A stretch of DNA of 64,000 nucleotides from Patescibacteria group bacterium (GCA_004321885.1 SCQK01000004.1:1-64000); one strand, 5' to 3'. Positions 7,798-52,369 are shown, counted from the first letter of the stretch. Notes: generated from the letters alone by a model not told the origin. Numbers and translations are program-made.

Positions 7798-9989
7798 ACA
7801 TACATCGTTTTCGCCGCGTTGTAGAGCTGTTTCACCTCGGCCGCCGACAGGGCGCGGTTGTACACGCGGACGTCGTCAATGGAGCCATTAAAATAAGCTA
7901 AATTAGAAGCTCTTCTTAACACGCCAATATCCATCGCTGTCGCGTCAACTATATCACCAAACCAATTTCCAGGATTTGCTACTTGATTTACAGTCATTGT
8001 TTGACTGATACCGTCAATATACGCGCTCCAAGCAGAACCATTAGAAATAAATACAACCTGGTGCCAATTTGTATCTTGATAAGAATTGCTGGGAGTAACA
8101 ACATCACCTTGTAGCGCTTGATTGACACGATTCCAAACTTCTAATCTTTTATTTGTTTTATCAAAATAAAAAACTAATTCATCATCATAAGAACCAGGTA
8201 CGGCAATGCTAAAAAGAGCTAAATCCGCAGACAAGCTGGCCATTTTTGTCCAGAATGCTACTGTTCCTTGTTGATTTGTTAAAAATGAGGGAGAAGTTTT
8301 TTCTATATAATCACTCGTCCCATTAAAACTCATCGCCCCGCTGATTTTCCCCGCCACTTTCGTGGGCGTGTTGGCCGAAGTGCCATGATTTCTATTGCCG
8401 CTTTTATCCCAGACATTTAATCCGCTTATATCCCCGCTGTCCATCGTCCAATACCCCACCAGCCCGCGGCGGGGGGCCGAGTTTGAGTACTTTTTTTTGA
8501 CCGCGTTGTAGAGCTGTTTCACCTCGGCCGCCGACAAGGCGCGGTTGTAGACGCGGACATCGTCAAATACAAAATCCGCTGGTTGTATGTAGCTGACCTC
8601 TTGAAAAATGCCAATCATAAAAAGATTGGCATCAGTCGCGTCATCAAACCATTGTCCAGAATTTGCGCCTGAATAAATGGTGAGCGGCAATGACATATTA
8701 TCAACATAAACGCTTATAGCAGAACCACTGGAAGTAAAAACAATATGATGCCAATTATTGTCGTTAATAGTATTATTGGGCGTCACCATATTCAACGTGA
8801 GGGCTCCATTTTGTGTTAAAATAATTTGAAAGGACTTTGAGCTGTCTCCTCTGTAATCCCAACGCAACGCATCATCAACTACTCCATTTGTCGCGATTGA
8901 GACAAATGTGCTAATAGCAGCATAAGCATTTGACCTTTTTGCCCAAAAAGAAATAGCGCCTTGCGAGTCATTTATAAAAGACGGATTGCTTTTGGTGATC
9001 CACTCCGTGCTCCCGTCAAAATTCAGCGCGTTGCCTATTTTCCCGGCCACGAGGTCGGCCGAGGTGATATTGGTGCCAGTGCCGTGGTTTTGCTGGCCGC
9101 TTTTGTCGTAGACTTTCGTGCCGTTTATATCCCCACTATCCATTGTCCACCACCCCACCAGTTGTTTGCGAACCGGGGCTTTGGTAAAGTTGCTTTTGGT
9201 GGCCTGGTATAGTTGTTTCACCTCGGCCGCCGACAGGGCGCGGTTGTACACGCGGACGTCATCAAGGGAGCCAGGGAAATATGAACCGCCATTTTCCACG
9301 CCTATTTGCAAATTTTTGCTGGAAGCAGCATTTCTGGCCGCCAACCCGCTTGCTGTGCCATCCTGCGCGCCGTTTACGTATACATAAGCATTATCGCCAT
9401 TTCTTACCGCTGCAACATGATACCATGTGTTTGCATTTAATGTAGTCGTCCCCGTGACATCAATACCACCTGAACCAACATAAAAAAGTAATTTTTGCCC
9501 CGCCCCCAAATTACGGGTATCAAATATAAACCCCATCTCACTTGCTCCGCCATTATTATATTTATCTAAAATTAAACTAATGGTGTTCCAAGTTGAGGCT
9601 TTTATCCACGCGGACAGCGTAAAATTTCCTGTCCCAAAATTAAATGACGCGCCTGGAGCTTGTAAGAACTGTGAAGAGCCGTTAAGATTCACAGCTTCCT
9701 TTATTTTCCCCGCCACAACGGTCGGACTGCCTGTTGAAGTAGCGTGATTCTTGTAACCTGATTTATCGTAATAGGTTATCCCACTCACATCCCCGCTATC
9801 CATCGTCCACCAGCCCACCAGCCCTTGGCGCGGGGCCGCGGCGTGGGCGACGTCTACCCCCCCTAGCCCCCCCTTATTAAGGGGGGGGAACGCAAAAAGC
9901 GCGCCCCAGAGAGCGACGCAAAAAACCGACAGCATTGTGGCTCCACGCACAGCATGGAGCCAGCGATTTTTGGAAGGTTTGCGAGACAT
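7791..9989 (-). CDS. secreted protein with three LamG-like lectin domains
   Basis: 732 aa. Signal peptide ending VDVAHAAAP. LSAAEVKQLY motif x3. The first 31 codons lie in a 98-bp segment duplicated at 10758..10856. A family-D palindrome (9848..9885) encodes FPPLNKGGLGGVD in frame. Confidence 0.8.
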   Translation of the reverse strand: MSRKPSKNRWLHAVRGATMLSVFCVALWGALFAFPPLNKGGLGGVDVAHAAAPRQGLVGWWTMDSGDVSGITYYDKSGYKNHATSTGSPTVVAGKIKEAVNLNGSSQFLQAPGASFNFGTGNFTLSAWIKASTWNTISLILDKYNNGGASEMGFIFDTRNLGAGQKLLFYVGSGGIDVTGTTTLNANTWYHVAAVRNGDNAYVYVNGAQDGTASGLAARNAASSKNLQIGVENGGSYFPGSLDDVRVYNRALSAAEVKQLYQATKSNFTKAPVRKQLVGWWTMDSGDINGTKVYDKSGQQNHGTGTNITSADLVAGKIGNALNFDGSTEWITKSNPSFINDSQGAISFWAKRSNAYAAISTFVSIATNGVVDDALRWDYRGDSSKSFQIILTQNGALTLNMVTPNNTINDNNWHHIVFTSSGSAISVYVDNMSLPLTIYSGANSGQWFDDATDANLFMIGIFQEVSYIQPADFVFDDVRVYNRALSAAEVKQLYNAVKKKYSNSAPRRGLVGYWTMDSGDISGLNVWDKSGNRNHGTSANTPTKVAGKISGAMSFNGTSDYIEKTSPSFLTNQQGTVAFWTKMASLSADLALFSIAVPGSYDDELVFYFDKTNKRLEVWNRVNQALQGDVVTPSNSYQDTNWHQVVFISNGSAWSAYIDGISQTMTVNQVANPGNWFGDIVDATAMDIGVLRRASNLAYFNGSIDDVRVYNRALSAAEVKQLYNAAKTMYVK

Positions 9990-10157: not shown

Positions 10158-10718
10158 TTAAATTTGTTTCAAAATTCCTTTCACGCAAAATTCTTTATAT
10201 AAATCCGGGAATGGTTCTTCTTCCTCCGTTTTGTCCCTCATAAAACCGGCAATGGCATCCGCCAAACGAACAAAAACATCGCTTTCATCTCTGGCGCCTC
10301 TCACTTTCCGAACTTTTATTCTTAACTTTCGCAAACCGGCCGCGAATCTTCCTCTTTCTTCTCTTTTTAATCCATCCACCAAAACCGTCGCCGTGTACTC
10401 TTTTTCCGCCCTTTGAGAAATTGCTTTAGCCGTAGATAATATCGTCAAATCCACATACGCCTTTGAATCTTCATATTTTGAAAAGAACGCGCTATTTCTC
10501 AATAATCCGCTTCCCAAAATCAGCCGTAAGTACGAAATTCTGCTTCTTCTTCTCGCTTTTGACCATTTGTGGACTCCCTTTCCGCTCTCTTTTTCAATAT
10601 TTTTTAACTTTTCTTTTATCGCGTCACGCTCTTTTTCCAAAATTATCACGGAAACCAGAAATAATTTTCCTTCGGTATCTTGCCCTGTTTCATCCACATA
10701 ACAATAATACTTTTGCAT
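10158..10718 (-). CDS. DUF3800-like protein (paralog 2)
   Basis: MQKYYCYVDETGQD ... RDESDVFVRLADAIAG. The listed ORF extends to 10814, but the extra 96 nt belong to the duplicated LamG-3 5' segment. Confidence 0.6.
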   Translation of the reverse strand: MQKYYCYVDETGQDTEGKLFLVSVIILEKERDAIKEKLKNIEKESGKGVHKWSKARRRSRISYLRLILGSGLLRNSAFFSKYEDSKAYVDLTILSTAKAISQRAEKEYTATVLVDGLKREERGRFAAGLRKLRIKVRKVRGARDESDVFVRLADAIAGFMRDKTEEEEPFPDLYKEFCVKGILKQI

Positions 10719-10757
10719 ATCAGGACTATACCACCGAATTGCGTGAATGCCAAAACA

Positions 10758-10856
10758 GCGCGCCCCAGAGAGCGACGCAAAAAACCGACAGCATTGTGGC
10801 TCCACGCACAGCATGGAGCCAGCGATTTTTGGAAGGTTTGCGAGACATGCAATCGC
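10758..10856. repeat. duplicate of the LamG-3 promoter-proximal/5' coding segment (9893..9990)
   Basis: Essentially identical ~98 bp including the ATG and first 31 codons (MSRKPSKNRWLHAVRGATMLSVFCVALWGAL). After that the frame ends after 40 codons. Confidence 0.8.
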
Positions 10857-13586: not shown

Positions 13587-16500
13587 ATGCCCATCAAACG
13601 AGTTCAAAAAGGACGACTAAAACCACCTGTCATTGCGAGACCTGAAAGAGGCCGCCTGCCCGCCTCTGGCGGGAAGCAATCCCCCGCGATTAAGAGAGGG
13701 ATCGCCGCGTCGCCCCGACGTAACGTCAGGGCTCCTCGCAATGACAAAGTGAAACCCGACACGAGCGGCGGTTACAGCGCCAAAAACATCACGGTGCTGG
13801 AAGGCTTGGAGGCCGTGCGCCGGCGGCCCGGCATGTATATCGGTTCCACGGGCACGACGGGCCTGCATCATCTGGTTTGGGAAGTGGTGGACAACTCCAT
13901 TGACGAAGCCATGGCCGGACATTGCGACCAAATTGACATCGCCTTGCTCCCCGGCCACCTGGTGGAAGTGCGCGACAACGGCCGCGGCATTCCGGTTGAC
14001 ATTCACCCCCAGCAAAAAGTCAGCGCCCTGGAAGTGGTACTCACCAAACTGCACGCCGGCGGTAAATTCGGCGACGGCGGCTATAAGGTCTCGGGCGGCC
14101 TCCACGGCGTGGGCGTGTCTGTGGTCAATGCTTTGTCGTCGTACGTAAAAGCCGAAGTGCATCGCGACGGAAAAATTTGGCTGCAAGAATACAAAAACGG
14201 CGGCCAGCCGGTAAAAAAAGTGCGGGCCATTGGCCCGGCCAAAGACACAGGCACGACCATTACTTTTTTACCCGACGCGAGCGTTTTTGAAACATTGGAT
14301 TTTGACTGGAAGACAATCGTGGACCATATCCGCCAACAGGCCTATCTAAACAAGGGCGTGCTTATTTCCGTTTCCGACCGGCGCCAGGGCGAGGAAAAAA
14401 CCAAAGACGGAACGGCTCTCCCTTATCCCAATCCCTCATATCAATTTTATTTTGAAGGCGGCATTGCTTCTTATGTGCGCCACCTGAATCAAAACAAAGA
14501 ACTGAAAAACGAAACTATTTTTTACGTTGATAAAGAGACCGATGGCGTGCGCGTGGAAACCGCTTTGCAATACACCGACGAATACACCGAATCGCTGTTC
14601 GCCTTTACCAACAACATCCACAATCCCGAAGGCGGCACGCATGTGGCTGGTTTTCGCGCGGCTCTCACACGCGGCCTGAACACCTACGCGCGCAACAAAA
14701 ATATCCTGAAAGAAAAAGACGCGAACCTGACCGGCGAGGACGCGCGCGAGGGCTTGAACTGCGTGATTTCGGTAAAGGTGCGCGAGCCCCAGTTTGAAGG
14801 TCAGACTAAAGCCAAACTGGGAAACACCGAGGTCAAGACCGCGGTGGAATCGGTGTTTGGCGACGCGTTTTTAATTTATTTGGAAGAGCACCCGCGGGAC
14901 GCCGAGGCCATCGTGGGCAAGTGTATCTTGGCGTCCAAAGCGCGCAACGCGGCCAAAATTGCGCGCGACGCCATCCTGCGCAAGGGCGCGCTGGAAGGCT
15001 TTACTTTGCCGGGCAAGCTGGCAGATTGCTCCAGCCGTCACGCCGAAGAGAGCGAATTGTTTTTGGTGGAAGGCGACAGTGCCGGTGGCTGTTTTTTTGG
15101 CTCAACTAAGCTAAAATTAGCCGACGGTCGCAGTTTATCTTTCAAAGAATTGGTGGAGGAAAACAAACAAGAAAAGAAAAACTATTGCTATACAATAAAA
15201 GAGGACGGCGATATTGGCATTGAACTGATAAAAAATCCACGAATGACGAAAACAGGCGCGGAAGTGATAAAAGTTATATTAGATAATGACGAGGAAATTA
15301 TTTGTACTCCGGACCACAAGTTTATGTTAAGGAACGGAGAATACAAGGTGGCACAAAATCTGACTCCCTGCGATTCATTAATGCCTCTATATAGGAAAAT
15401 ATCTGAAAAGAGTGGCAGAATCACAATTGAAGGATATGAAATGACCTTTAACCCGAAAGATGCAAGATGGATTTTCACTCATCTACTGGCAGATGATTAT
15501 AATTTACGAAACGGGGTGTACCCCGATGATAGAGGCACCAACAAGCATCATGTTGATTTTAATAAGTTAAATAATAACCCAGATAATATAGTAAGGATGA
15601 CTCACGAAGATCATATGGCTTATCATGCCATGATGCTTCAATTTGGTTTGCACAGAGCGGATGTAAAAGAAAAATCCAAAAAAGCTCACCAATCCGAGGG
15701 GTTTAAAGAAAAAATGAGCAGAATCATGAGTACTCCGGAAATGAAACAAATGTTAAGCCGCAGAGCGAAAAAGCAATGGGAGAACGAGGAATATAAAAAG
15801 TTCATGACGCAAAAATTCTTGGAATTTTACAATTCTAATGAGGAATACAAAAAAAAGAATAATGATTTTCTTAATAAGGCGCAGGAAGAATATTGGGCTG
15901 ACAAAGCCAACAGGAAAAAACAAGCCGAAAGAGTCACTGCGCATTTCAAGGAACATCCCGAAAGAAAAAAATGGCTTAGGGATTTCGCGAAACGGGAATG
16001 GACAGACAAAAATCTGCTTAAATGGCGAGCCGGGAAAACCAAGGAGCAATGGACTGACGAGTTTAGAAGGAAACGAAAAGAAGCATATGACAAGGTCTAC
16101 TTGACCAGCAGTCTGGCTTTCGCCAAAAAGCTTCTTGAATCCAAAGAAGATATGCTGAAAAAATATGACACTGCGCGAATTAATCTTCCGAAAAAAAATA
16201 CCAACCTGTTGAGCTTGAGGACTTTAATTGACAGATTTTTCAACGGCCAAAAACAAAACTTCCTTGAGGCGGTGGCGAATTATAACCATAAAATAATAAG
16301 AATTGAAAAAGTTGCCGAAAAAATGGACGTATATGATATTGAAGTGCCGCACACGCACAACTTTGCATTGGCCAGCGGCGTGTTCGTGCACAATAGCGCA
16401 AAATCCGGACGCGATCGCGAACACCAGGCCATACTCCCCTTGCGCGGCAAGGTGCTGAACGTGGAGCGCGCGCGCTTGGACAAAATCATCGGCAACAACG

Positions 16501-24577: not shown

Positions 24578-25339
24578 ATGCCCAAGCAACCTTATAAAAT
24601 CATTGCTGAAACTGCGGATTATCTGGTGGTGGAAAAACCGGCCGGCCTGTTGACGCATTCCACCGCCAAACGCGAGCCAGACTCACTGGCTGAGTTGTTG
24701 GCAAAAAAATACCCGGAAATGCGCGAGGTGGGCGACTCCCCGGCCGAACGCCCGGGCATTGCGCACCGGCTGGACAAAGAAGCCTCGGGCTTGCTGGCGG
24801 CGGCGCGCACCCAAAAGATGTTTGAACATTTGAAAAAACAGTTCCAGGAACGAACCGTGGAAAAAGAATACATCGCCCTGGTACACGGCAAGGTGGCAAA
24901 AGATGTCGGCGAAATAAACTTCCCCATCGGCCGAGCGACGAACAAGGAGAGGATGGCGGCCAGGCCGTTTACCCCTCCCTCGCCACCACACCAAAAATTT
25001 TGGTGTGGTGGCGAGCCCTCCCCTTCTAAGGGGGAGGGGAAAATGGCCAGCACTGAATTTGAGGTGGAAAAGCGATTCATCAATTTCACCCTATTGCGCG
25101 TCAAAATCCACACCGGCCGCATGCACCAGATTCGCGTTCATTTGCTCGCCTACGGCAACCCGCTCGTCGGCGACCCGCTCTACATCAAAAGAAAACAAAA
25201 GCGCAAATGGGACCAGGCGCTGGGACGACTTTTCTTGCACTGCGTAAAATTAGTGTTCAAAGATTTGAATGGGGCGCCGCGAACATTTACTTCCCCGTTG
25301 CCGCTTGAATTGGAAAATTTTCTTAAAAAAATAAAGTAG
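24578..25339 (+). CDS. RluA-family pseudouridine synthase
   Basis: ADYLVVEKPAGLLTHS ... GIAHRLDKEASGLLAAA ... HQIRVHL. In-frame family-D-like palindrome 24968..25045 encodes PFTPPSPPHQKFWCGGEPSPSKGEGK. Confidence 0.8.
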   Translation: MPKQPYKIIAETADYLVVEKPAGLLTHSTAKREPDSLAELLAKKYPEMREVGDSPAERPGIAHRLDKEASGLLAAARTQKMFEHLKKQFQERTVEKEYIALVHGKVAKDVGEINFPIGRATNKERMAARPFTPPSPPHQKFWCGGEPSPSKGEGKMASTEFEVEKRFINFTLLRVKIHTGRMHQIRVHLLAYGNPLVGDPLYIKRKQKRKWDQALGRLFLHCVKLVFKDLNGAPRTFTSPLPLELENFLKKIK

Positions 25340-26304: not shown

Positions 26305-26400
26305 AAAAAAACTGGCTCCATACTCTGTGTGGAGCCAGTTTGCAATACGGCTCCACAGCCCCGACTAAGTCGGGGACTATGGAGCCAGCTACTGACCAGC
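26305..26400. repeat. family-A palindromic element copy
   Basis: ctggctccatactctgtgtggagccagtttgcaatacggctccacagccccgactaagtcggggactatggagccagc. Confidence 0.7.
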
Positions 26401-26416
26401 GATTGGGAGCGGGATT

Positions 26417-29341
26417 TTATCCTTTTAAGTACTTCCCGGTCCAGCTTTTTTTGCTCTTCATAATATCACGCGGAGCGCCCGCGGCCACAATCTCTCCGCC
26501 CTTGTCCCCGCCCTCTGGCCCCATGTCTATCACCCAATCGGCTGAACGTATCACGTCCAGATTGTGCTCTATCACCAGCACGGTGTTGCCTTTGGCCACC
26601 AATCTGTTCAACACTTCCAACAAATGTTTTATATCTTCAAAATGCAAGCCAGTGGTGGGTTCGTCCAAAATATATAATGAATGTCCGGACGCGCTGCGCG
26701 ACAGCTCGGCGGACAGCTTTATTCTCTGGGCTTCGCCGCCCGAAACCGTGGTGGCCGGCTGGCCCAGCTGAACATAGCCCAAACCGATTTCGCGCAACAC
26801 GCCCAACTTGCCGGCGATGGGCGGAACGTCGTTAAAAAAAGCAAAGGCCTCGTCTACGGTCATACGCAAGACATCGGCGATATTCTTGTTGCGGTAATGT
26901 ATCTCCAGGGCCTCGCGATTATAGCGGTCTCCGCCGCACTCATTGCACTGCATGTACACGTCGGCCAAAAATTGCATGGGGATGCGCACATAGCCCTCAC
27001 CGGCGCAGGCCTCGCAACGGCCCCCGCCCTTCACGTTAAAACTGAACTTGCCGGCGTCGTAGCCGTTCATTTTGGCTTCGGGCAAACCGGCGAACAAATC
27101 GCGAATCAAAGTAAACAGCCCCGTGTACGTAGCCGGATTACTGCGCGGGGTGCGGCCGATGGGCGACTGGTCCACGGTAATTACTTTGTCAATATTTTCA
27201 ATGCCTTTAATTTTTTTGTGCTCGCCCGGCAAATCTTTGGCCCGATAAAAATGGCGGGCCAGCTGTCTGCCCAAAATATCCACGATGAGCGAAGACTTGC
27301 CCGAACCAGACACGCCGGTCACGCACACGAATTTGCCCAAGGGGATGTCGGCGTCCACATTTTTCAAATTAAAGGCCCTGGCGCCGAGGATAGAAATTTT
27401 TTTGTTGGATTTTTGCAGACGCGCCCCCATTTTTATGGGCAGGACGCCCCGGCCGACTAGATACTTTCCCGTAACCGATTTTTTATTTTTTTTTATCTGT
27501 TGTAAACTGCCGGCCGCCACGATTTCGCCGCCGGAGAGGCCGGCGCCCGGCCCCATATCAATTAAATAATCCGCGCCGGCCATCATAGCGCTGTCGTGCT
27601 CCACCACTATTACAGTGTTGCCCAAATCGCGCAAAAATTTCAGGGCGCCGATGAGTTTGGCGTTGTCTTTGGGATGCAGGCCCACCGAAGGCTCGTCTAA
27701 AATATATATAATGCCGGTAAGGCCCGACGACAGCTGGCCGGCCAAACGCACGCGCGTCACCTCTCCACCCGAGAGCGTGTTCATGGCGCGCCCCAGCGAC
27801 AAGTATCCCAAGCCCACCTCCTGTAAATTTTGCAAGCGCTTGATTGTTTCTTTGATGATGGTTTCACCGTGCTGGGCAAAAACTTTGCCTCCCATCCCCC
27901 ATTTGTCCCCCCCTCTGGCAGAGGAAGAAAGCTTTTCCAAAACCGACACGGCTTGCCCGGCCGACAGCTCGGAAATATCCGCGATGCTGTACTGGCCCAG
28001 CTTCACGGCCAATGACTCCACGCGCAAACGTTTGCCATGGCACAGGGAACACACCTGCTCGCGCATGTACTGTTCTATTTCACCGCGCACATAATCAGAA
28101 TCGGTCTCCAAATGCCGCTGGGTCAGATTGGTAATCACCCCGGAAAAAACGGTTTTCTTTCCGTCTATTTCGTATGTCTCGTTGTCGCCGTACAAAATCA
28201 GCTTCATCTGCGCATCGGAAAGTTCTGCTACTGGCGCATTCAGAGAAAAATCATGTTTCTGCGCGACCGCGGCCAGAATTTTTTGGTACCACGTTTGATT
28301 GCCGGTAATGCGGGTCCAGGGCTGGATAGCGCCCTCGGCCAAAGTAAGCCGCTTGTTAGGCGCCACCAGCTCCGGGTCAACTTCCATGGTCACGCCCAAA
28401 CCAGTACAACGCGGGCAGGCGCCATAAGGGCTGTTAAAACTAAAACTGCGCATGTCAATCGCCGGCATTACTTTGCCGCATTTAGCGCACAGCCCTTCGG
28501 TGGAAAACAACACTTCCCTCCCCCTTTTTAAGGGGAAGGCGGGGTGGGGGTAAGACGCCGCAATCACACTGCCGTTGCTCAAATCCAAGGCCGTCTCCAC
28601 CATTTTGGCGATGTTGGGCTGTTTCTTGGCATTCTGGGTGGAAATATTTCCCACCACCAGTTCCACGTTGTATTTTTTATTGGGCAAAAAACCAAAACGC
28701 GCGAATTCGTTTAGTTTCATCAGCTCGCCGTTTACCCGCACCGTGTCAAAACCCGACTTTTCCACTTTGTCCAGCAATGCGGCATGACTGGGTTCCCCTC
28801 CCCCTTTTAGAGCTTGTCCCGAACTTGTTTCGGGAGGGAGGACAGAGGAGGGGGTATTTGGCGAGGATGGGGTCAATGGAGACAACACCCACACCTCGGA
28901 ACTATTCCGCGTCATCTTTCTCACTTCCTCGGTAATCTGGCCGGGCGTAAACGACATCACTGGCACGCCGCAACCGGGGCAGTATTGCGCGCCCACGCGC
29001 GCGAAGAGCAAACGCAAATAATCGTAAATCTCGGTGATAGTGCCCACGGTGGAACGCGGATTCTGCGAAGAACTTTTCTGGCCGATGGCGATGGTGGGAG
29101 AAAGCCCCTCCACGCTGTCCACGTCCGGCTTGTCGCGCACGTCCATAAACTGGCGCGCGAAAGAAGACAGCGACTCGGCGTAGCGGCGCTGGCCCTCGGC
29201 GTAAATTGTGTCAAAGGCGAGCGAGGATTTTCCCGAACCGGACAAGCCGGTAATCACTACCAGCTTGTTCTTGGGAATTTCCACGTTTATATTCTTCAAG
29301 TTGTGTACTCTCGCCCCTTTGATGATTATTTTATCAGCCAT
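26417..29341 (-). CDS. uvrA: excinuclease ABC subunit A
   Basis: Two ABC modules ([23 protein letters not shown]; [10 protein letters not shown]), zinc-finger cysteines. Contains two in-frame family-D palindromes (28513..28553, 28793..28860). Confidence 0.9.
28793..28860. repeat. family-D G/C palindromic element (cctcccc-tt..aa-ggggagg type) inside uvrA
   Basis: ggttcccctcccccttttagagcttgtcccgaacttgtttcgggagggaggacagaggagggggt. Other copies: 9848..9885, 11300..11345, 12690..12800, 17406..17448, 24968..25045, 28513..28553, 34478..34528, 48735..48850, 49514..49554, 63893..63945. Confidence 0.7.
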
Positions 29342-36364: not shown

Positions 36365-36545
36365 GCTGGCTCCATAGTCCCCGACTAAGTCGGGGCTGTG
36401 GAGCCGTATTGCAAACTGGCTCCACACAGAGTATGGAGCCAGCGGGTGTAGAAAATCGCTGGCTCCATAGTCCCCGACTAAGTCGGGGCTGTGGAGCCGT
36501 ATTGCAAACTGGCTCCACACAGAGTATGGGGTCAGCGAGCAAAGG
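36365..36545. repeat. two tandem family-A palindromic elements
   Basis: cgctggctccatagtccccgactaagtcggggctgtggagccgtattgcaaactggctccacacagagtatggagccagcg repeated twice. Confidence 0.8.
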
Positions 36546-37884: not shown

Positions 37885-37950
37885 ACATAAATTTCAAATC
37901 TCCTTTTTAGATAGTATAGCAAACAAAAACGCCCCTGTTAAGGGGGCGTT

Positions 37951-38410
37951 TGTGGTTCATGGTTATAAGCCGAATTTTGTACCCCGACGTTACGTCGGGG
38001 CGATGTTCATTTCTCTGGTCTTGACATTGCTGTCAAAATCTTAGCGAGCGAACTTTTTATCCCGACTAAGTCGGGACTCTGCTCTTGCGCCAGACAGGGC
38101 TTGGCACTCTTCGACGTTGCCGCCGAAGGGAGTATGGTAGCTTTGGTCTCGAGAACCACAACTCCCATACACTTTTCACCTTTGACGAACCCCGACTAAG
38201 TCGGGGTGAACGTCCGCCTGTGGCGGACTCTCATGAATCGCTAGTATTGTCTCTGTGCCGCTTTCCCTACGCCGACGTTGCCGCCGACGTGGCGGGTGTT
38301 ACCCGTTGCCTTTTTCTTTACCGGCTAGTTCCGCTAAGGGCGGACAGACGGAAAGGGCGTTCGGACTTTCCTTCCCGACTAAGTCGGGACGAACATCTGC
38401 CACGAACTGA
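37951..38410 (-). ncRNA. rnpB: RNase P RNA (bacterial type A-like)
   Basis: Minus strand contains GGAAAGTCCGAACGCC (CR-I), GGGTAACACCCGCC (GGTAACGCC-like), AAAGGTGAAAAG, and ACAAAATTCGGCTTATAACC (CR-V, ACAGAACCCGGCTTA-like). P1 GTTCGTGG / CCATGAAC. Followed by terminator 37924..37950. Three cccgacttagtcggg hairpins occupy peripheral helix positions (one at P3). Confidence 0.75.
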
Positions 38411-41018: not shown

Positions 41019-42212
41019 ATGCGCGTTGGCATTGATGTCAGGCCGCTGATGAATGACGTGCGCACCGGCATTGGCGAATACACGCATTTTTTGCTGGACA
41101 CTATTTTTGACATTGATAAAAAGAACGAATATTTTCTGTTTTACAACTCCGGCAAAGATGTCGGCGCCAATATTCCCCAGTGGACGCAAAATAATATTCA
41201 TTATGTCGCGAGCAGATGGCCCAATAAAATTTTCAACGCGTCCATAAAATTTTTCAACCGGCCGCGAATCAAAGAGGTGGACATTTTTTTTTCTCCTAAT
41301 CTCAACTTCACCGCCCTGTCGCCGAAAACAAAATTTATTCTCACGGTTCACGACTTGTCCTTTGAGCTGTTTCCGGAATTTTTTTCCGCCAAACAGCGGC
41401 TGTGGCACAAAATGATAAACCCGCGCAGACAATGCCAGCGGGCCGATATTATTATCGCGCCCTCTGAAAACACCAAGCGGGATTTGAGGGAGATATATAA
41501 TATAGAAGAGAAAAAAATAAAAGTGATTTACCCGGGAATATGTCATCCCGACCCGCCACAGGGCGGGGAGGGATCTCTGTTCACGGCTGGCTCCATAATC
41601 CCCCCCACAGGGGTGGAGCTAAACTGCAAGCTGGCTCCACAGCCCGCCTTTGGCGGGATTATGGAGCCAGCCAATTCCAATCCCTACATCCTCTTCCTCG
41701 GCACCATTGAGCCGCGCAAAAATATTATCGGCCTGATAGAGGCGTTTGAAAAAGCCTGCCCCTCGCTCCCGGCGCCTTACACCCTCGTTATCGCCGGGGC
41801 CGCGGGCTGGAACAATAAACAGATTTACGAACGCGCCAAAAATTCCCCCATTAAAGATAAAATTAAAATTTTGGGATACGTGCGGCCGGAAGAAAAGCCG
41901 GCTCTGTATGCCGGCGCGGCCTTGTTTTGCTATCCCAGCATTTACGAGGGCTTTGGTTTTCCGGTTTTGGAAGCCATGTCCGCGGGGACTCCGGTTTTAA
42001 CCTCAAACCGCTCTTCCCTGCCGGAAATAACGAGCGGCGCCGCGCACCTGGTAAATCCAAACAATGTTTCCGACATGGCCGCAGGCATAATAAACATTTT
42101 AACCAACGAAAAACTGCGCAATTTTTTGAAAGAAAAGGGCCAAGAGCAGGCCGCGAAATTTTTATGGCAAGAAGCGGCGGAAAAATTTTTAAGCGTTATT
42201 CGCTCTTTGTAA
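41019..42212 (+). CDS. glycosyltransferase family 4, with in-frame palindromic-element insertion
   Basis: GT4 motifs (ILFLGTIEPRKN, EGFGFPVLEAMSAGTPV). Segment 41585..41668 (ggctccacagcccgcctttggcgggattatggagccagcc, family-A-like) encodes ...GVELNCKLAPQPAFGGIMEPANS in frame. Confidence 0.75.
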   Translation: MRVGIDVRPLMNDVRTGIGEYTHFLLDTIFDIDKKNEYFLFYNSGKDVGANIPQWTQNNIHYVASRWPNKIFNASIKFFNRPRIKEVDIFFSPNLNFTALSPKTKFILTVHDLSFELFPEFFSAKQRLWHKMINPRRQCQRADIIIAPSENTKRDLREIYNIEEKKIKVIYPGICHPDPPQGGEGSLFTAGSIIPPTGVELNCKLAPQPAFGGIMEPANSNPYILFLGTIEPRKNIIGLIEAFEKACPSLPAPYTLVIAGAAGWNNKQIYERAKNSPIKDKIKILGYVRPEEKPALYAGAALFCYPSIYEGFGFPVLEAMSAGTPVLTSNRSSLPEITSGAAHLVNPNNVSDMAAGIINILTNEKLRNFLKEKGQEQAAKFLWQEAAEKFLSVIRSL

Positions 42213-50548: not shown

Positions 50549-52369
50549 TTATTTCCTCCCGCTGATTTCGGTTTTCAAGCGAGAGATAAAATTTTGTTTA
50601 GACATTTTTATCTGGTCCTTTTGCCCGCGCGCGCGAATCATCCACGGCTCGCCGCCGATTTCCTTGTCGCCCACCACCACCACGTACGGAATTTTGCGCT
50701 CGGCCGCTTTGCGGATTTTATTGCCCAAGGTTTCGTTGGCCTCGTCTGTTTCCACTCGTATGCCCGCGTCTTTCATTTCACCCTCAATGGCGCGAGCGCC
50801 ACCGACGTGCTTTTCCGAAACCGAAGCCAACAAAACCTGGACCGGCGACAGCCAGAGCGGCCATACTCCCCCGTAATGTTCTATCAAAAACGCCGTGAAC
50901 CGCTCGTGCGTGGACAGCGGGGCGCGATGAATGACAAACACCTCGTTATTTTCTTTGCCGCTTTCGTCCGTGTAACTCAACTCAAATCTTTTCTTGGCCG
51001 CGAAATCAAGTTGAATCGTTGACATCGTCTCTTCGCGCCCGACGATTGATTTGAATTGCACGTCAACTTTGGGTCCGTAAAACGCCGCTTCGTCGTCAAC
51101 TTCAACAAAATCCACAAATGCTTCTTGGAGAACTTCACGAATAACGCTTTCGCAAAATTCCCAATTTTTTGGCTCATTGATATATTTGTCCAGACGCTCC
51201 GGGCTCCACTTGGACAAACGAAACCAATAATTTTTTAAGCCGAAAATTTCAAAATATTTTATATTTAATTGCAATACATCCATGAATTCTGCCTTGATTT
51301 GATCTTTGCGGCAATAAATATGCGCGTCATTCATGGCCAAACAGCGCACGCGCAACAATCCGGCCAGGGTACCGGATAACTCATTGCGGTAAACCGTGCC
51401 GTATTCAGCCATGCGCAAAGGCAATTCGCGATAACTGCGTTGGTTATGTTTGTAAATCAAATGGTGGTGCGGGCAATTCATGGCTTTCAGATAATACGTG
51501 CCATCATCCATTTTCATGGCCGGATACATACTGTCTTTGTAGTACGGCAAATGCCCGGATTTAATGTACAGCTCTTCCTTGGCCAAATGCGGAGTTACGA
51601 CGCGCGTGTAGCCGTGTATGTTTTCCATCTCAATGGCTAACTTTTCTATCTCATTTCTTATCACAGTTCCGTTTGGCAACCACATGGCCAATCCTTTACC
51701 CACCATGTCATCAATAAAGAACAGGCCTTGCTCCTGCCCAATTTTGCGGTGGTCGCGCTTTTCGGCTTCGGCCAGCATGGCCAAATATTCGTCCAATTCT
51801 TTTTGCGAAGCAAAACAAGCGCCGTAAATTCTTTGCAGCATTTTATTTTTTTCGCTTCCGCGCCAGTAGGCCCCGGCCAATTTTGTCAGCTTGAACGCGC
51901 CGATTTCTTTAGCTGATTGCACGTGCGGCCCGCGACACAAATCCACAAATTTACCCGTTTTGTACAAAGATACAATTCCTTTTTTCGGCTTTTCGCCAAT
52001 CACATCGGCTTCGTCTTTCGTCACTCTTGTTGTTCCCTTTTTCTTCAAATCCTTTAACAATTCAACCTTGTAATCCTGCTTTTCTTTTTTGAAAAACTTT
52101 ACGGCGTCGTCAATATCCAATTCATTTTTTTCAAACAACAAATCTTTTTCAATCAGCTGGCGCGCCTTGATTTCTATCTTTTCCAAATCCGCTTCGCCAA
52201 TGGGCTCTGAAAAATCTATGTCATAATAAAAGCCATTCTCCACCACCGGTCCCACGCCAAACTTGGCCTTGGGATAAAGCTCTTGTACCGCGGCCGCTAC
52301 CACATGCGCGCACGAGTGGCGCATTGTCTCCAATTTTTTGTTTTTCTCGTACATATTTAATACAAACAA
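50549..52369 (-). CDS. thrS: threonyl-tRNA synthetase (apparently without an N-terminal TGS domain)
   Basis: MRHSCAHVVAAAVQELYP ... class II motifs (YRELPLRMAEYGTVYRNE, FRLSKWSPE), anticodon-binding C-terminus. Confidence 0.9.
   Translation of the reverse strand: MFVLNMYEKNKKLETMRHSCAHVVAAAVQELYPKAKFGVGPVVENGFYYDIDFSEPIGEADLEKIEIKARQLIEKDLLFEKNELDIDDAVKFFKKEKQDYKVELLKDLKKKGTTRVTKDEADVIGEKPKKGIVSLYKTGKFVDLCRGPHVQSAKEIGAFKLTKLAGAYWRGSEKNKMLQRIYGACFASQKELDEYLAMLAEAEKRDHRKIGQEQGLFFIDDMVGKGLAMWLPNGTVIRNEIEKLAIEMENIHGYTRVVTPHLAKEELYIKSGHLPYYKDSMYPAMKMDDGTYYLKAMNCPHHHLIYKHNQRSYRELPLRMAEYGTVYRNELSGTLAGLLRVRCLAMNDAHIYCRKDQIKAEFMDVLQLNIKYFEIFGLKNYWFRLSKWSPERLDKYINEPKNWEFCESVIREVLQEAFVDFVEVDDEAAFYGPKVDVQFKSIVGREETMSTIQLDFAAKKRFELSYTDESGKENNEVFVIHRAPLSTHERFTAFLIEHYGGVWPLWLSPVQVLLASVSEKHVGGARAIEGEMKDAGIRVETDEANETLGNKIRKAAERKIPYVVVVGDKEIGGEPWMIRARGQKDQIKMSKQNFISRLKTEISGRK

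What the first reader, a model, noticed from the sequence alone, without database searches (positions are those of the whole stretch)
41585..41668. Family-A-like element inserted in frame in a GT4 glycosyltransferase
ggctccacagcccgcctttggcgggattatggagccagcc carries the family-A ggctccaca...tatggagccagc ends and a gcc-tttggc-ggg hairpin. It adds GVELNCKLAPQPAFGGIMEPANS just before the conserved ILFLGTIEPRKN region. The same family elsewhere encodes the MEPA/WSHSAV pseudo-ORFs seen in the six-frame track.
Basis: seen in the sequence. Interest (0 to 1): 0.5.

Follow-up and report, generated by a model that had tools for sequence, protein, structure and literature searches.

The report
Palindromic repeat inside a glycosyltransferase gene

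Summary
Window 41586-41671 is a full-length copy of a dispersed repeat ('family A'): two hairpin units in inverted orientation around a short spacer. A covariance model built without this copy finds it at 55 bits (E 3e-11). The window holds 7 full and 2 half copies. The other six full copies lie 4-43 nt downstream of stop codons.

The copy lies in frame in a 397-aa GT4 glycosyltransferase, in the linker between the two Rossmann domains. AlphaFold2 gives pLDDT above 90 everywhere except this linker, where it drops to about 40. Of 120 orthologues, only the nearest (65% identity) carries the element, at the same site, frame and length, so the insertion is old and retained.

About 30% of the orthologues carry other, unrelated palindrome-like inserts in the same linker. 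Family A also sits in frame in UvrA, RsmA, a MiaB-like protein, an Elp3-like radical-SAM protein and a Mur ligase of other Patescibacteria. It also occurs outside genes in Nitrospinota and Gammaproteobacteria.

There are no target-site duplications, no GTAG tag and no transposase in the window, so the mobilising enzyme is unknown. I file it as a new family of a known kind (REPIN/RPE-like). Interest is moderate.

The parts
41019..42212 (+). Host gene: a GT4 (GT-B fold) glycosyltransferase of 397 aa, the second of three GT4 genes in a polysaccharide cluster.
   Evidence: ORF. Pfam Glyco_transf_4 and Glycos_transf_1. AlphaFold2 mean pLDDT 90.9. Foldseek matches MshA, BshA, PimA and WaaG. Conserved synteny.
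41537..41687 (+). Variable inter-domain linker, between VIYPG and ILFLGTIEPRKN. It is 50 aa here against 20-30 aa in most orthologues.
   Evidence: blastn homology to orthologous loci stops at about 41536-41540 and resumes at 41688. Linker length census. GC is 0.60 against 0.37 and 0.49 in two control stretches of the same gene, and fold z is -6.9 against -0.9 and -0.7 in those controls. pLDDT is 38-64 for residues about 175-220.
41545..41574 (+). Separate short hairpin insert (ATCCCGACCCGCC/GGCGGGGAGGGAT) encoding HPDPPQGGEG. It is not family A.
   Evidence: Inverted repeat I3. DNA fold -12.1 kcal/mol, z -4.3. Absent from L001, which reads VIYPG-LS-AGS. No other copy in the window.
41586..41671 (+). 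The family-A element, 86 nt, in frame. With one flanking base it makes 29 codons: AGSIIPPTGVELNCKLAPQPAFGGIMEPA.
   Evidence: Covariance-model hit 55.2 bits, E 2.7e-11, full length.
41589..41620 (+). Left hairpin unit (GGCTCCATA-ATCCCCCCCACAGGGG-TGGAGCT). It is partly decayed: the 3' arm reads TGGAGCT, not TGGAGCC.
41621..41632 (+). Spacer AAACTGCAAGCT, containing the family's conserved TGC..GCA-type core.
41633..41668 (+). Right hairpin unit (GGCTCCACAG-CCCGCCTTTGGCGGG-ATTATGGAGCC).
1704..1804 (.). Family-A copy, intergenic, 6 nt downstream of the stop of a Laminin_G_3 gene.
   Evidence: 83.5 bits.
4230..4314 (.). Family-A copy between tRNA-Arg and the stop of a Bro-N gene.
   Evidence: 78 bits.
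7686..7786 (.). Family-A copy, 4 nt downstream of the stop of a Laminin_G_3 gene.
   Evidence: 82.9 bits.
26311..26389 (.). Family-A copy, 27 nt downstream of the uvrA stop.
   Evidence: 63.4 bits.
36365..36536 (.). Two tandem family-A copies (36365-36443 and 36458-36536) between the convergent RNase J and malate/lactate dehydrogenase genes.
   Evidence: 67.1 and 61 bits.
9939..9964 (.). Half copy (a single unit without inner hairpin) inside a roughly 90-nt repeat. Its twin is at 10798-10823.
   Evidence: 28.1 bits each.
10798..10823 (.). Second half copy.

Best explanation
Family A is a small, non-autonomous palindromic repeat with a REPIN-like build. It has two roughly 23-40-nt hairpin units (GGCTCCA-TA-[variable inner hairpin]-TG-TGGAGCC) in inverted orientation around a 12-20-nt spacer, so the whole element can fold into one long hairpin or cruciform.

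One copy entered the DNA that encodes the hinge between the two Rossmann domains of this GT4 glycosyltransferase. This happened in an ancestor of the window organism and of the organism of contig L001. The event replaced most of the native linker.

The copy survived for two reasons. It is stop-free in the frame used, and the encoded 29 residues sit in a solvent-exposed, disordered loop that does not disturb the GT-B fold. The gene is therefore still a working gene, and the element is translated as a passenger loop.

Shown: family membership; in-frame status; absence from 118 of 120 orthologues; sharing with the nearest one; location in a low-confidence linker of an otherwise confident model; recurrence of in-frame copies in other conserved genes.

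Inferred: that the protein is made and active; that the element moved by transposition; that the mobilising enzyme acts in trans and is of the HUH/Y1 (RAYT- or IS200-like) type. This last point is the weakest, at roughly one chance in three.
For: Family membership. A held-out covariance model gives 55.2 bits, E 2.7e-11. The 10-mer is enriched 15 against 0.11 expected.

Architecture. The alignment of 28 copies shows conserved arms and variable inner hairpins that keep pairing. DNA fold z-scores range from -6 to -9.4.

Insertion, not an ancestral segment. Only P0001 and P0002 of 120 orthologues have it. DNA homology to three orthologous loci breaks exactly around the linker. The linker GC of 0.60 is foreign to the gene.

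Old and retained. L001 has a canonical 86-nt copy (78.7 bits) at the same junction, frame and orientation. The flanking gene is only about 70% identical in DNA.

Tolerated. AlphaFold2 pLDDT is above 90 except for residues about 175-220. All residues invariant across the 120 aligned orthologues, including the E310..E318 pair, are kept.

Extra constraint or homogenisation on the element. Third-codon-position identity with L001 is 76% inside the element against 54% outside, and no outside 27-codon window reaches that value. There is one compensatory C-G / T-A exchange in the right inner stem.

General behaviour of the family. In-frame copies occur in UvrA (L024), RsmA/KsgA (L013), a MiaB-like protein (L025), an Elp3-like radical-SAM protein (L048) and a Mur ligase (L061). 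Copies are open in 3-4 of 6 frames.

Mobile-element style of distribution. The six other full copies in the window (five intergenic sites) lie 4-43 nt downstream of stop codons. The family is scattered through several phyla.
Against: No transposase was found among about 45 window genes, and no gene recurs next to copies elsewhere.

There are no target-site duplications and no empty-site or filled-site pair close enough to define the junction. The nearest element-free orthologue is only 57% identical.

The element is 86 nt, which is not a multiple of three. Frame preservation therefore needed an accompanying change in the host sequence that cannot be reconstructed.

The loss of the conserved KYNLP helix segment might impair the enzyme; activity is untested. 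Translation of the loop is also untested.

The high third-position identity could instead mean gene conversion from other copies, or two separate insertions at a hot spot.
Confidence: 0.85

Rival explanations
1. Two independent insertions, or repeated gene conversion, at a hot spot. On this view the window lineage and the L001 lineage each acquired or refreshed a family-A copy in a linker that attracts palindromes, and there was no single ancestral event.
For: The same linker carries unrelated palindrome-like inserts in about 30% of 120 orthologues. DNA hairpins were confirmed in three of them. The L001 copy is more canonical than the window copy, at 78.7 against 55.2 bits. Its right unit differs by one base (35/36, by eye) from the window's intergenic unit at 4276-4311. 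Third-position identity inside the element exceeds every other part of the gene.
Against: The two copies share length (86 nt), orientation (the CCGCC-TTT-GGCGG hairpin is in the right unit in both), reading frame and 3' junction (...CCAGC-N-AAT). Both lack the native KYNLP segment. These details are unlikely to arise twice.
Confidence: 0.15
2. The element has been co-opted. The hairpin in the mRNA or DNA, or the encoded loop, now serves a function. Examples are a translational pause between the two domains, an RNase III/RNase J processing site that tunes the operon, or a protein-protein contact loop.
For: The hairpins are preserved over about 30% flanking divergence, with one compensatory pair and unusually conserved synonymous positions. 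The sense-strand fold has z -6. The position is exactly at the domain boundary.
Against: The same family sits at unrelated positions in unrelated proteins and mostly in intergenic DNA. Other lineages fill the same linker with unrelated sequences, or with nothing. The left unit of the window copy is decaying. The loop is predicted to be disordered.
Confidence: 0.1
3. The gene is a decaying pseudogene, or the join is an assembly artefact at a repeat, and the open frame is a coincidence.
For: Repeats are classic assembly breakpoints. An 86-nt insert that is open in 3-4 of 6 frames can stay stop-free by chance. The conserved linker helix is missing.
Against: The identical structure appears in an independent Logan assembly of another run (L002). 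The homologous structure appears in a different organism and sample (L001). Both ORFs are full length. All invariant GT4 residues are kept. The fold is predicted with pLDDT above 90 on both sides of the linker.
Confidence: 0.03

Closest known systems
Rickettsia palindromic elements (RPEs; Ogata et al. 2000 and 2002, as summarised in PMC10969869 and PMC3733652)
   Same: Both are short palindromic repeats, dispersed in a reduced genome, that are often found in frame inside unrelated conserved genes. Both encode an extra peptide judged compatible with the host protein's fold. Here the hosts are GT4, UvrA, RsmA, a MiaB-like protein, an Elp3-like protein and a Mur ligase.
   Different: There is no sequence relation. 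RPEs are about 100-150 bp, and Di Nocera et al. describe them as ending in a CGTC tag; I saw no such tag on the family-A ends, though I did not formally scan for it. The hosts here are Patescibacteria plus Nitrospinota and Gammaproteobacteria, not Rickettsia. Family A is built of two inverted hairpin units with swappable inner hairpins. The fraction of copies inside genes is lower: about 8 of about 55 copies seen, in a sample biased by an exact-match search.
REPINs / REP doublets and BIMEs (Bertels & Rainey 2011, PMC3116915; Di Nocera et al. 2013, PMC3733652)
   Same: Both have two hairpin units in inverted ('head-to-head') orientation with a short spacer, able to fold into one long hairpin. 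Both occur as singlets (the half copies) and doublets. Both lie mostly just downstream of genes and between convergent genes. Both have G·T pairs in the stems, occasional intragenic copies including DNA-repair genes, and no target-site duplication.
   Different: The defining unpaired GTAG tag (or its listed variants) is absent; the corresponding position reads ATAG and is paired. No RAYT gene flanked by the units was found in the DNA available. The same unit sequences recur across phyla, whereas REP families are usually lineage-specific.
Bacterial MITEs with terminal inverted repeats (for example Correia/NEMIS, ERIC, QMITE of Coxiella; review PMC10969869)
   Same: Both are small, non-coding by origin, with terminal inverted repeats, present in many copies, and sometimes fused in frame to host ORFs.
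   Different: No target-site duplication, such as the TA of Correia elements, was seen in 35 copies. No related full-length IS with the same ends was found.
IS200/IS605-family elements and their miniature derivatives (PATEs)
   Same: Both have hairpin ends with conserved imperfections and no target-site duplication. One family-A copy lies 70 nt from an IS200-like Y1 transposase gene (L074; PF01797, 124.8 bits).
   Different: That IS has its own, different end hairpins (CCCCGCCGCTTGCGGCG...). IS200/IS605 ends are in direct rather than inverted orientation. The association was seen only once in about 585 kb of DNA.

Membership tests
Family A (the dispersed repeat of this window) | Conserved blocks GCTGGCTCCATA ... 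TGTGGAGCC - spacer - GGCTCCACA ... TATGGAGCCAGC, scored by a model that does not contain the candidate. | tested here: met
   Covariance model R1, built from 28 other copies, gives 55.2 bits, E 2.7e-11, over model positions 1-92 of 92 at 41584-41673.
GT4 glycosyltransferase (GT-B fold) | Two Rossmann-like domains, Pfam Glyco_transf_4 plus Glycos_transf_1, and the conserved E..E pair in the C-terminal domain. | tested here: met
   Pfam families on record. AlphaFold2 model with pTM 0.88. Foldseek top hits are MshA, BshA, PimA and WaaG at E 1e-15 to 1e-21. E310 and E318 are invariant.
RPE-like 'protein-coding palindrome' | A dispersed palindromic repeat found in frame, stop-free, inside conserved genes and absent from orthologues. 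| tested here: met
   GT4: present in 2 of 120 orthologues. Also found in UvrA, RrnaAD, UPF0004/Radical_SAM, Radical_SAM(+C) and Mur ligase hosts.
RPE-like 'protein-coding palindrome' | Sequence homology to Rickettsia RPE families, or their CGTC end tag. | tested here: not met
   I saw no CGTC on the family-A ends (TCGCTGGCTCCA...), by inspection rather than a dedicated scan. No Rfam or other match. RPE sequences themselves were not available for alignment.
REP / REPIN | Two REP hairpins in inverted orientation separated by a short spacer. | tested here: met
   The units read GGCTCCA-TA..TG-TGGAGCC and GGCTCCA-CA..TA-TGGAGCC, which are reverse complements of each other in their conserved parts. 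The spacer is 12-20 nt in the window copies.
REP / REPIN | Unpaired GTAG (or GYAG/GYRG/GTRG/GTMG) tetranucleotide at one end of each unit. | tested here: not met
   The consensus reads CCATAGT... and the ATAG is part of the stem. No GTAG flanks the units (the definition is from PMC3733652).
REP / REPIN | A cognate RAYT (Y1 transposase) gene flanked by the repeats, in the same genome. | tested here: inconclusive
   None in the 64-kb window and none flanked by units in about 585 kb of fetched loci. The single Y1_Tnp found (L074) has different end hairpins. The rest of the genome was not available.
DDE-type MITE | Target-site duplication flanking terminal inverted repeats. | tested here: not met
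   The flanks of 35 copies show no direct repeat.
Described structured RNA family | Match to an Rfam covariance model. | tested here: not met
   No hit at gathering thresholds in the window. Only noise at E above 1 on the tandem copies.

The most novel reading that the evidence does not exclude
Family A is an undescribed REPIN-like mobile hairpin family with three unusual properties.
1. It is shared, with near-identical units, by at least three phyla: Patescibacteria, Nitrospinota and Gammaproteobacteria. This implies horizontal spread together with an unidentified mobilising enzyme.
2. In Patescibacteria it behaves like Rickettsia's RPEs and is repeatedly fixed in frame inside core genes.
3. 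It lands preferentially where another palindrome already sits. This would explain why one GT4 hinge collects unrelated hairpin inserts in about 30% of lineages, and why mini-hairpins such as CCCCGACTnAGTCGGGG are nested inside family-A units.

If true, palindrome insertion would be a general route of loop gain in the proteins of ultrasmall bacteria.
Probability: 0.35. Interest if true: 0.6.

Novelty: new member of a known kind. Interest (0 to 1): 0.42.

Why it matters
Palindromic 'selfish DNA' that ends up translated inside essential proteins is textbook for Rickettsia and has been noted for REPs in a few other groups. I found no description of it for Patescibacteria/CPR in the searchable literature.

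If general, it matters in three ways:
- Annotation. Inflated 'hypothetical' loops, broken domain hits and fragmented assemblies in these genomes may trace to such elements.
- Protein evolution. Loop gain at domain hinges in very small genomes would have a defined source.
- Mobile-element biology. This is a hairpin family with conserved units across phyla and no known transposase.

For this single locus the consequence is modest. The enzyme most likely works with an extra disordered loop.

Tried and rejected
- Rfam found nothing. No match at gathering thresholds over the whole window, and only noise at relaxed E-values over the tandem copies.
- An exact-sequence literature search returned only unrelated primer or gene hits.
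- No recurrent neighbour gene was found around 24 loci carrying the element.
- No transposase was found among about 45 window genes.
- No target-site duplications were found in 35 copies.
- The viral-contig scan gave one stretch, which the covariance model does not support, so it is a chance match.
- The weak covariance-model hit at 51320-51370 lies in a conserved ThrRS segment and is chance.
- The genome-contig scan did not return the window's own genome. About 12 of its 40 stretches are chance matches in GC-rich genes, for example in Streptomyces.
- L011, which shares a flank motif, is only 70-85% identical. No empty-site/filled-site comparison was possible.
- The IS200-like transposase next to a copy in L074 has its own, different terminal hairpins. 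It is not good evidence for a cognate enzyme.
- The upstream hairpin 41545-41574 has no second copy in the window, so I could not assign it to a repeat family.
- A DGR reading (copies lie downstream of Laminin_G genes) was dropped, because copies also follow uvrA, RNase J and a tRNA.
- An intrinsic-terminator reading of the GT4 copy was dropped, because no T-run follows it.

Full report
**The observation**

The window encodes a 397-aa protein at 41019-42212 (+). It is only the right half of a larger element.

The element spans 41586-41671 (86 nt):

GCTGGCTCCA-TAATCCCCCCCACAGGGG-TGGAGCT / AAACTGCAAGCT / GGCTCCA-CAGCCCGCCTTTGGCGGGATTA-TGGAGCCAGC

Its terminal inverted repeat extends to 21-nt arms that are 95% complementary. 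The end motif GCTGGCTCCA occurs 15 times in the window against 0.11 expected from shuffles.

**The family**

Reading all sites shows a common plan. There are two units, GGCTCCA-TA-[inner hairpin or nothing]-TG-TGGAGCC and its inverted form GGCTCCA-CA-[...]-TA-TGGAGCC. A 12-20-nt spacer with a small TGC..GCA palindrome separates them, and GCT/AGC (often TCGCT/AGCGA) closes the ends.

I aligned 28 copies from the window and from other organisms, leaving out the glycosyltransferase copies. I built a covariance model from that alignment and searched the window with filters off.
- The glycosyltransferase copy scores 55.2 bits, E 2.7e-11, over the full model.
- The window holds seven full copies: 1704, 4230, 7686, 26311, 36365, 36458 and 41586.
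- It also holds two half copies, at 9939 and 10798.
- Nothing else credible appears. A 14-bit hit in ThrRS is chance.

Single-stranded folds are far more stable than shuffles, with z -6.0 for the gene copy and -8.6 and -9.4 for two intergenic copies. Rfam has no matching family.

**Where the other window copies lie**

All five other sites are intergenic and lie 4-43 nt downstream of a stop codon:
- after two Laminin_G_3 genes;
- after a Bro-N gene, opposite a tRNA-Arg;
- after uvrA;
- as a tandem pair between the convergent RNase J and malate/lactate dehydrogenase genes.

This is the placement described for REP-type repeats (PMC3733652).

**The host gene and the site**

The protein is a GT4/GT-B glycosyltransferase.
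- Pfam families are Glyco_transf_4 and Glycos_transf_1.
- An AlphaFold2 model built from 120 orthologues has mean pLDDT 90.9 and pTM 0.88.
- Its best structural matches are MshA, BshA, PimA and WaaG.

The gene sits in a conserved Bac_transf-GT4-GT4-GT4-DUF4012-CLIPPER-IPPT cluster. The same cluster appears in three other Patescibacteria, so the compared proteins are positional orthologues.

The element lies between VIYPG, the end of the N-terminal domain, and ILFLGTIEPRKN, the first strand of the C-terminal domain. In the model, everything is above pLDDT 90 except residues about 175-220, which fall to 38-64.

DNA homology to the orthologous loci stops at about 41536-41540 and resumes at 41688. 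The 151-nt linker has 60% GC, against 37% and 49% in two control stretches of the same gene. It folds with z -6.9, against -0.9 and -0.7 for the same controls.

**Comparison with orthologues**

A protein search found the window protein itself (NCBI, 'Patescibacteria group bacterium') and thousands of homologues. Across the best 120:
- The linker is 20-30 residues in most, and ends in a conserved ..KxKYNLPxxF segment.
- Only the window protein and its nearest relative P0002 (65% identity) carry the family-A peptide.

The DNA of P0002 (L001, a different sequencing run) holds a canonical 86-nt copy scoring 78.7 bits. It has the same 3' junction, the same frame and the same orientation as the window copy. 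Both proteins lack the KYNLP part of the native linker. The event was therefore a replacement of about 17 residues by 29, not a pure insertion.

The window protein has an additional 14 codons upstream (CHPDPPQGGEGSLFT against S in L001). These hold an unrelated 30-nt hairpin at 41545-41574. It has no second copy in the window.

**Conservation inside the element**

Comparing the window with L001, nucleotide identity is 80% inside the element and 70% outside. Third-codon-position identity is 76% inside against 54% outside. No 27-codon window elsewhere in the gene reaches that value.

One stem pair of the right inner hairpin changed on both sides, C-G in the window and T-A in L001.

This points to one of three things: a constraint on the hairpin itself, homogenisation by other copies, or refreshment of the copy. 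I cannot tell these apart.

**Why the frame is open**

Window copies are stop-free in 3-4 of six frames. The one frame regularly closed is the one that reads CCA-TAG.

The frame used in the glycosyltransferase starts AGSI and ends MEPA, which follows from the inverted ends and the 86-nt length. Because 86 is not a multiple of three, the host sequence must have changed by one or two bases at the event. That detail is lost.

**The phenomenon is general**

A pattern scan of one genome per species found about 28 true family members. A metagenome scan found 28 more stretches. The window's own genome is not in the species set.

Testing every copy for a spanning open frame and then checking the hosts gave canonical copies in frame in five further proteins, all in Patescibacteria or unlabelled metagenome contigs:

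| Locus | Host protein | Model score (bits) |
|---|---|---|
| L013 | RsmA/KsgA | 85 |
| L025 | MiaB-like methylthiotransferase | 71 |
| L048 | Elp3-like radical-SAM protein | 81 |
| L061 | Mur ligase (a second, weaker copy lies in the same gene) | 89 |
| L024 | UvrA | 30 |

That is about 8 of about 55 copies, in a sample biased by the exact-match search.

Separately, about 30% of the 120 GT4 orthologues carry other palindrome-style peptides in the same linker. Examples are CHSEQSEESLS, CHPELVSGS..KQVQHD, VIPAKAGIQ and PSPYRGGS..PSPIRGE. For the three I fetched, the linker DNA is strongly hairpin-forming, with z -8.2, -2.9 and -4.9. A second loop, after PKLDK, shows the same behaviour.

The hinge is thus either a very tolerant site or a preferred target.

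**Spread beyond Patescibacteria**

Near-identical units, for example GGCTCCACAGGGCTnCGCCACTATGGAGCC, occur in MAGs labelled Nitrospinia, Nitrospinota and Gammaproteobacteria. Those loci carry MetH, chemotaxis receptors, Kdo transferase and NuoCD. By my own knowledge these are gene types that Patescibacteria typically lack, so they are not mis-binned Patescibacteria contigs.

**Mechanism of spread: unresolved**

- No target-site duplication was found in 35 copies.
- No GTAG tag is present.
- No transposase is present in the window.
- No neighbour gene recurs.
- A phmmer search, seeded with an IS200 TnpA sequence written from memory, found one Y1 transposase in about 585 kb of fetched loci. It is L074 3016..3462, confirmed by Pfam PF01797 at 124.8 bits, and lies 70 nt from a family-A copy. 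It has its own, different terminal hairpins, so the link may be coincidental or may reflect insertion next to a hairpin.

The inverted-doublet build, the absence of duplications and the conserved T·G / C·A imperfection in each stem fit single-strand HUH/Y1-type mobilisation best. This is inference only.

**Comparison with known systems**

In behaviour the element is closest to Rickettsia palindromic elements: in-frame, fold-compatible inserts in unrelated genes (PMC10969869). In architecture and placement it is closest to REP doublets/REPINs (PMC3116915; PMC3733652).

It fails the sequence-level membership tests of both, having no GTAG or CGTC tag and no cognate RAYT found. It also lacks the duplications expected of DDE-type MITEs.

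I found nothing on such elements in Patescibacteria in the searchable literature. That library omits most subscription journals.

**Verdict**

The insertion is ancestral to two lineages, it replaced the native linker, and a second hairpin lies next to it.

The kind of thing is known. The family and the host group appear to be new. Interest is moderate.

Noticed in passing
window 24979-25015 (in gene 24578..25339, PseudoU_synth_2): A perfect 37-nt palindrome (CTCGCCACCACACCAAAA-A-TTTTGGTGTGGTGGCGAG) lies in frame in a pseudouridine synthase gene. It is followed by a PSPSKGEG-type hairpin and reads PSPPHQKFWCGGEPSPSKGEG. It looks like another in-frame palindromic insert of a different family.
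   Followed up: partly
window 20776, 25939, 38190 (stand-alone) and 1774, 7756, 26359, 36379, 36472 (inside family A): The mini-hairpin CCCCGACTnAGTCGGGG occurs 8 times against 0 expected. Five copies are nested as the 'inner hairpin' of family-A units and three stand alone, one of them inside the RNase P RNA region. This suggests that inner hairpins are separate modules that move into, or are captured by, family-A units.
   Followed up: partly
window 37950-38408 (-): The RNase P RNA (class A) match spans 459 nt for a 367-position model, so it carries about 90 nt of extra sequence. This includes the mini-hairpin at 38190-38206.
   Followed up: no
window 13587-17117 (+): The GyrB gene is interrupted by an intein (Pfam Intein_splicing, residues 511-936 of 1176).
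   Followed up: no
window 61251-61314 (+) and genes 749..1324, 10158..10814, 61336..61878: A DUF3800-II RNA motif (67 bits) lies beside one of three DUF3800 genes in the window. The two half copies of family A sit in a roughly 90-nt repeat at the starts of a Laminin_G gene and a DUF3800 gene.
   Followed up: no
window 4058-4314 and 7514-7786: A segmental duplication: tRNA-Arg (GCG or CCG anticodon), then about 100 nt of shared sequence, then a family-A copy. The three Laminin_G_3 paralogues (692, 780 and 732 aa) are interleaved with these.
   Followed up: no
window 26417..29341 (uvrA), residues about 159-190: Relative to the UvrA of L024, the window UvrA has an extra [31 protein letters not shown] segment whose DNA is hairpin-forming. 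Conversely, the L024 UvrA carries a family-A-type insert that the window lacks.
   Followed up: partly
window 23838-23911 (+): A tRNA-Ile with anticodon TAT (UAU). By my own knowledge this is an uncommon way for bacteria to read AUA.
   Followed up: no
L074 3016-3643: An IS200-like Y1 transposase gene (148 aa) is flanked by its own CCCCGCCGCTTGCGGCG-type hairpins and lies 70 nt from a canonical family-A copy. This is the only transposase seen near any copy.
   Followed up: yes
alignment A1 columns about 110-160 (after PKLDK; window protein residues about 83-88): A second loop of the GT4 orthologues also carries palindrome-style inserts in several lineages, for example CHCEEQSPDSHQDEATWQSHG...SLAMTE in P0008 and FPRRRESSTEHLDPHFHGDD in P0046. 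The window protein has none there.
   Followed up: no
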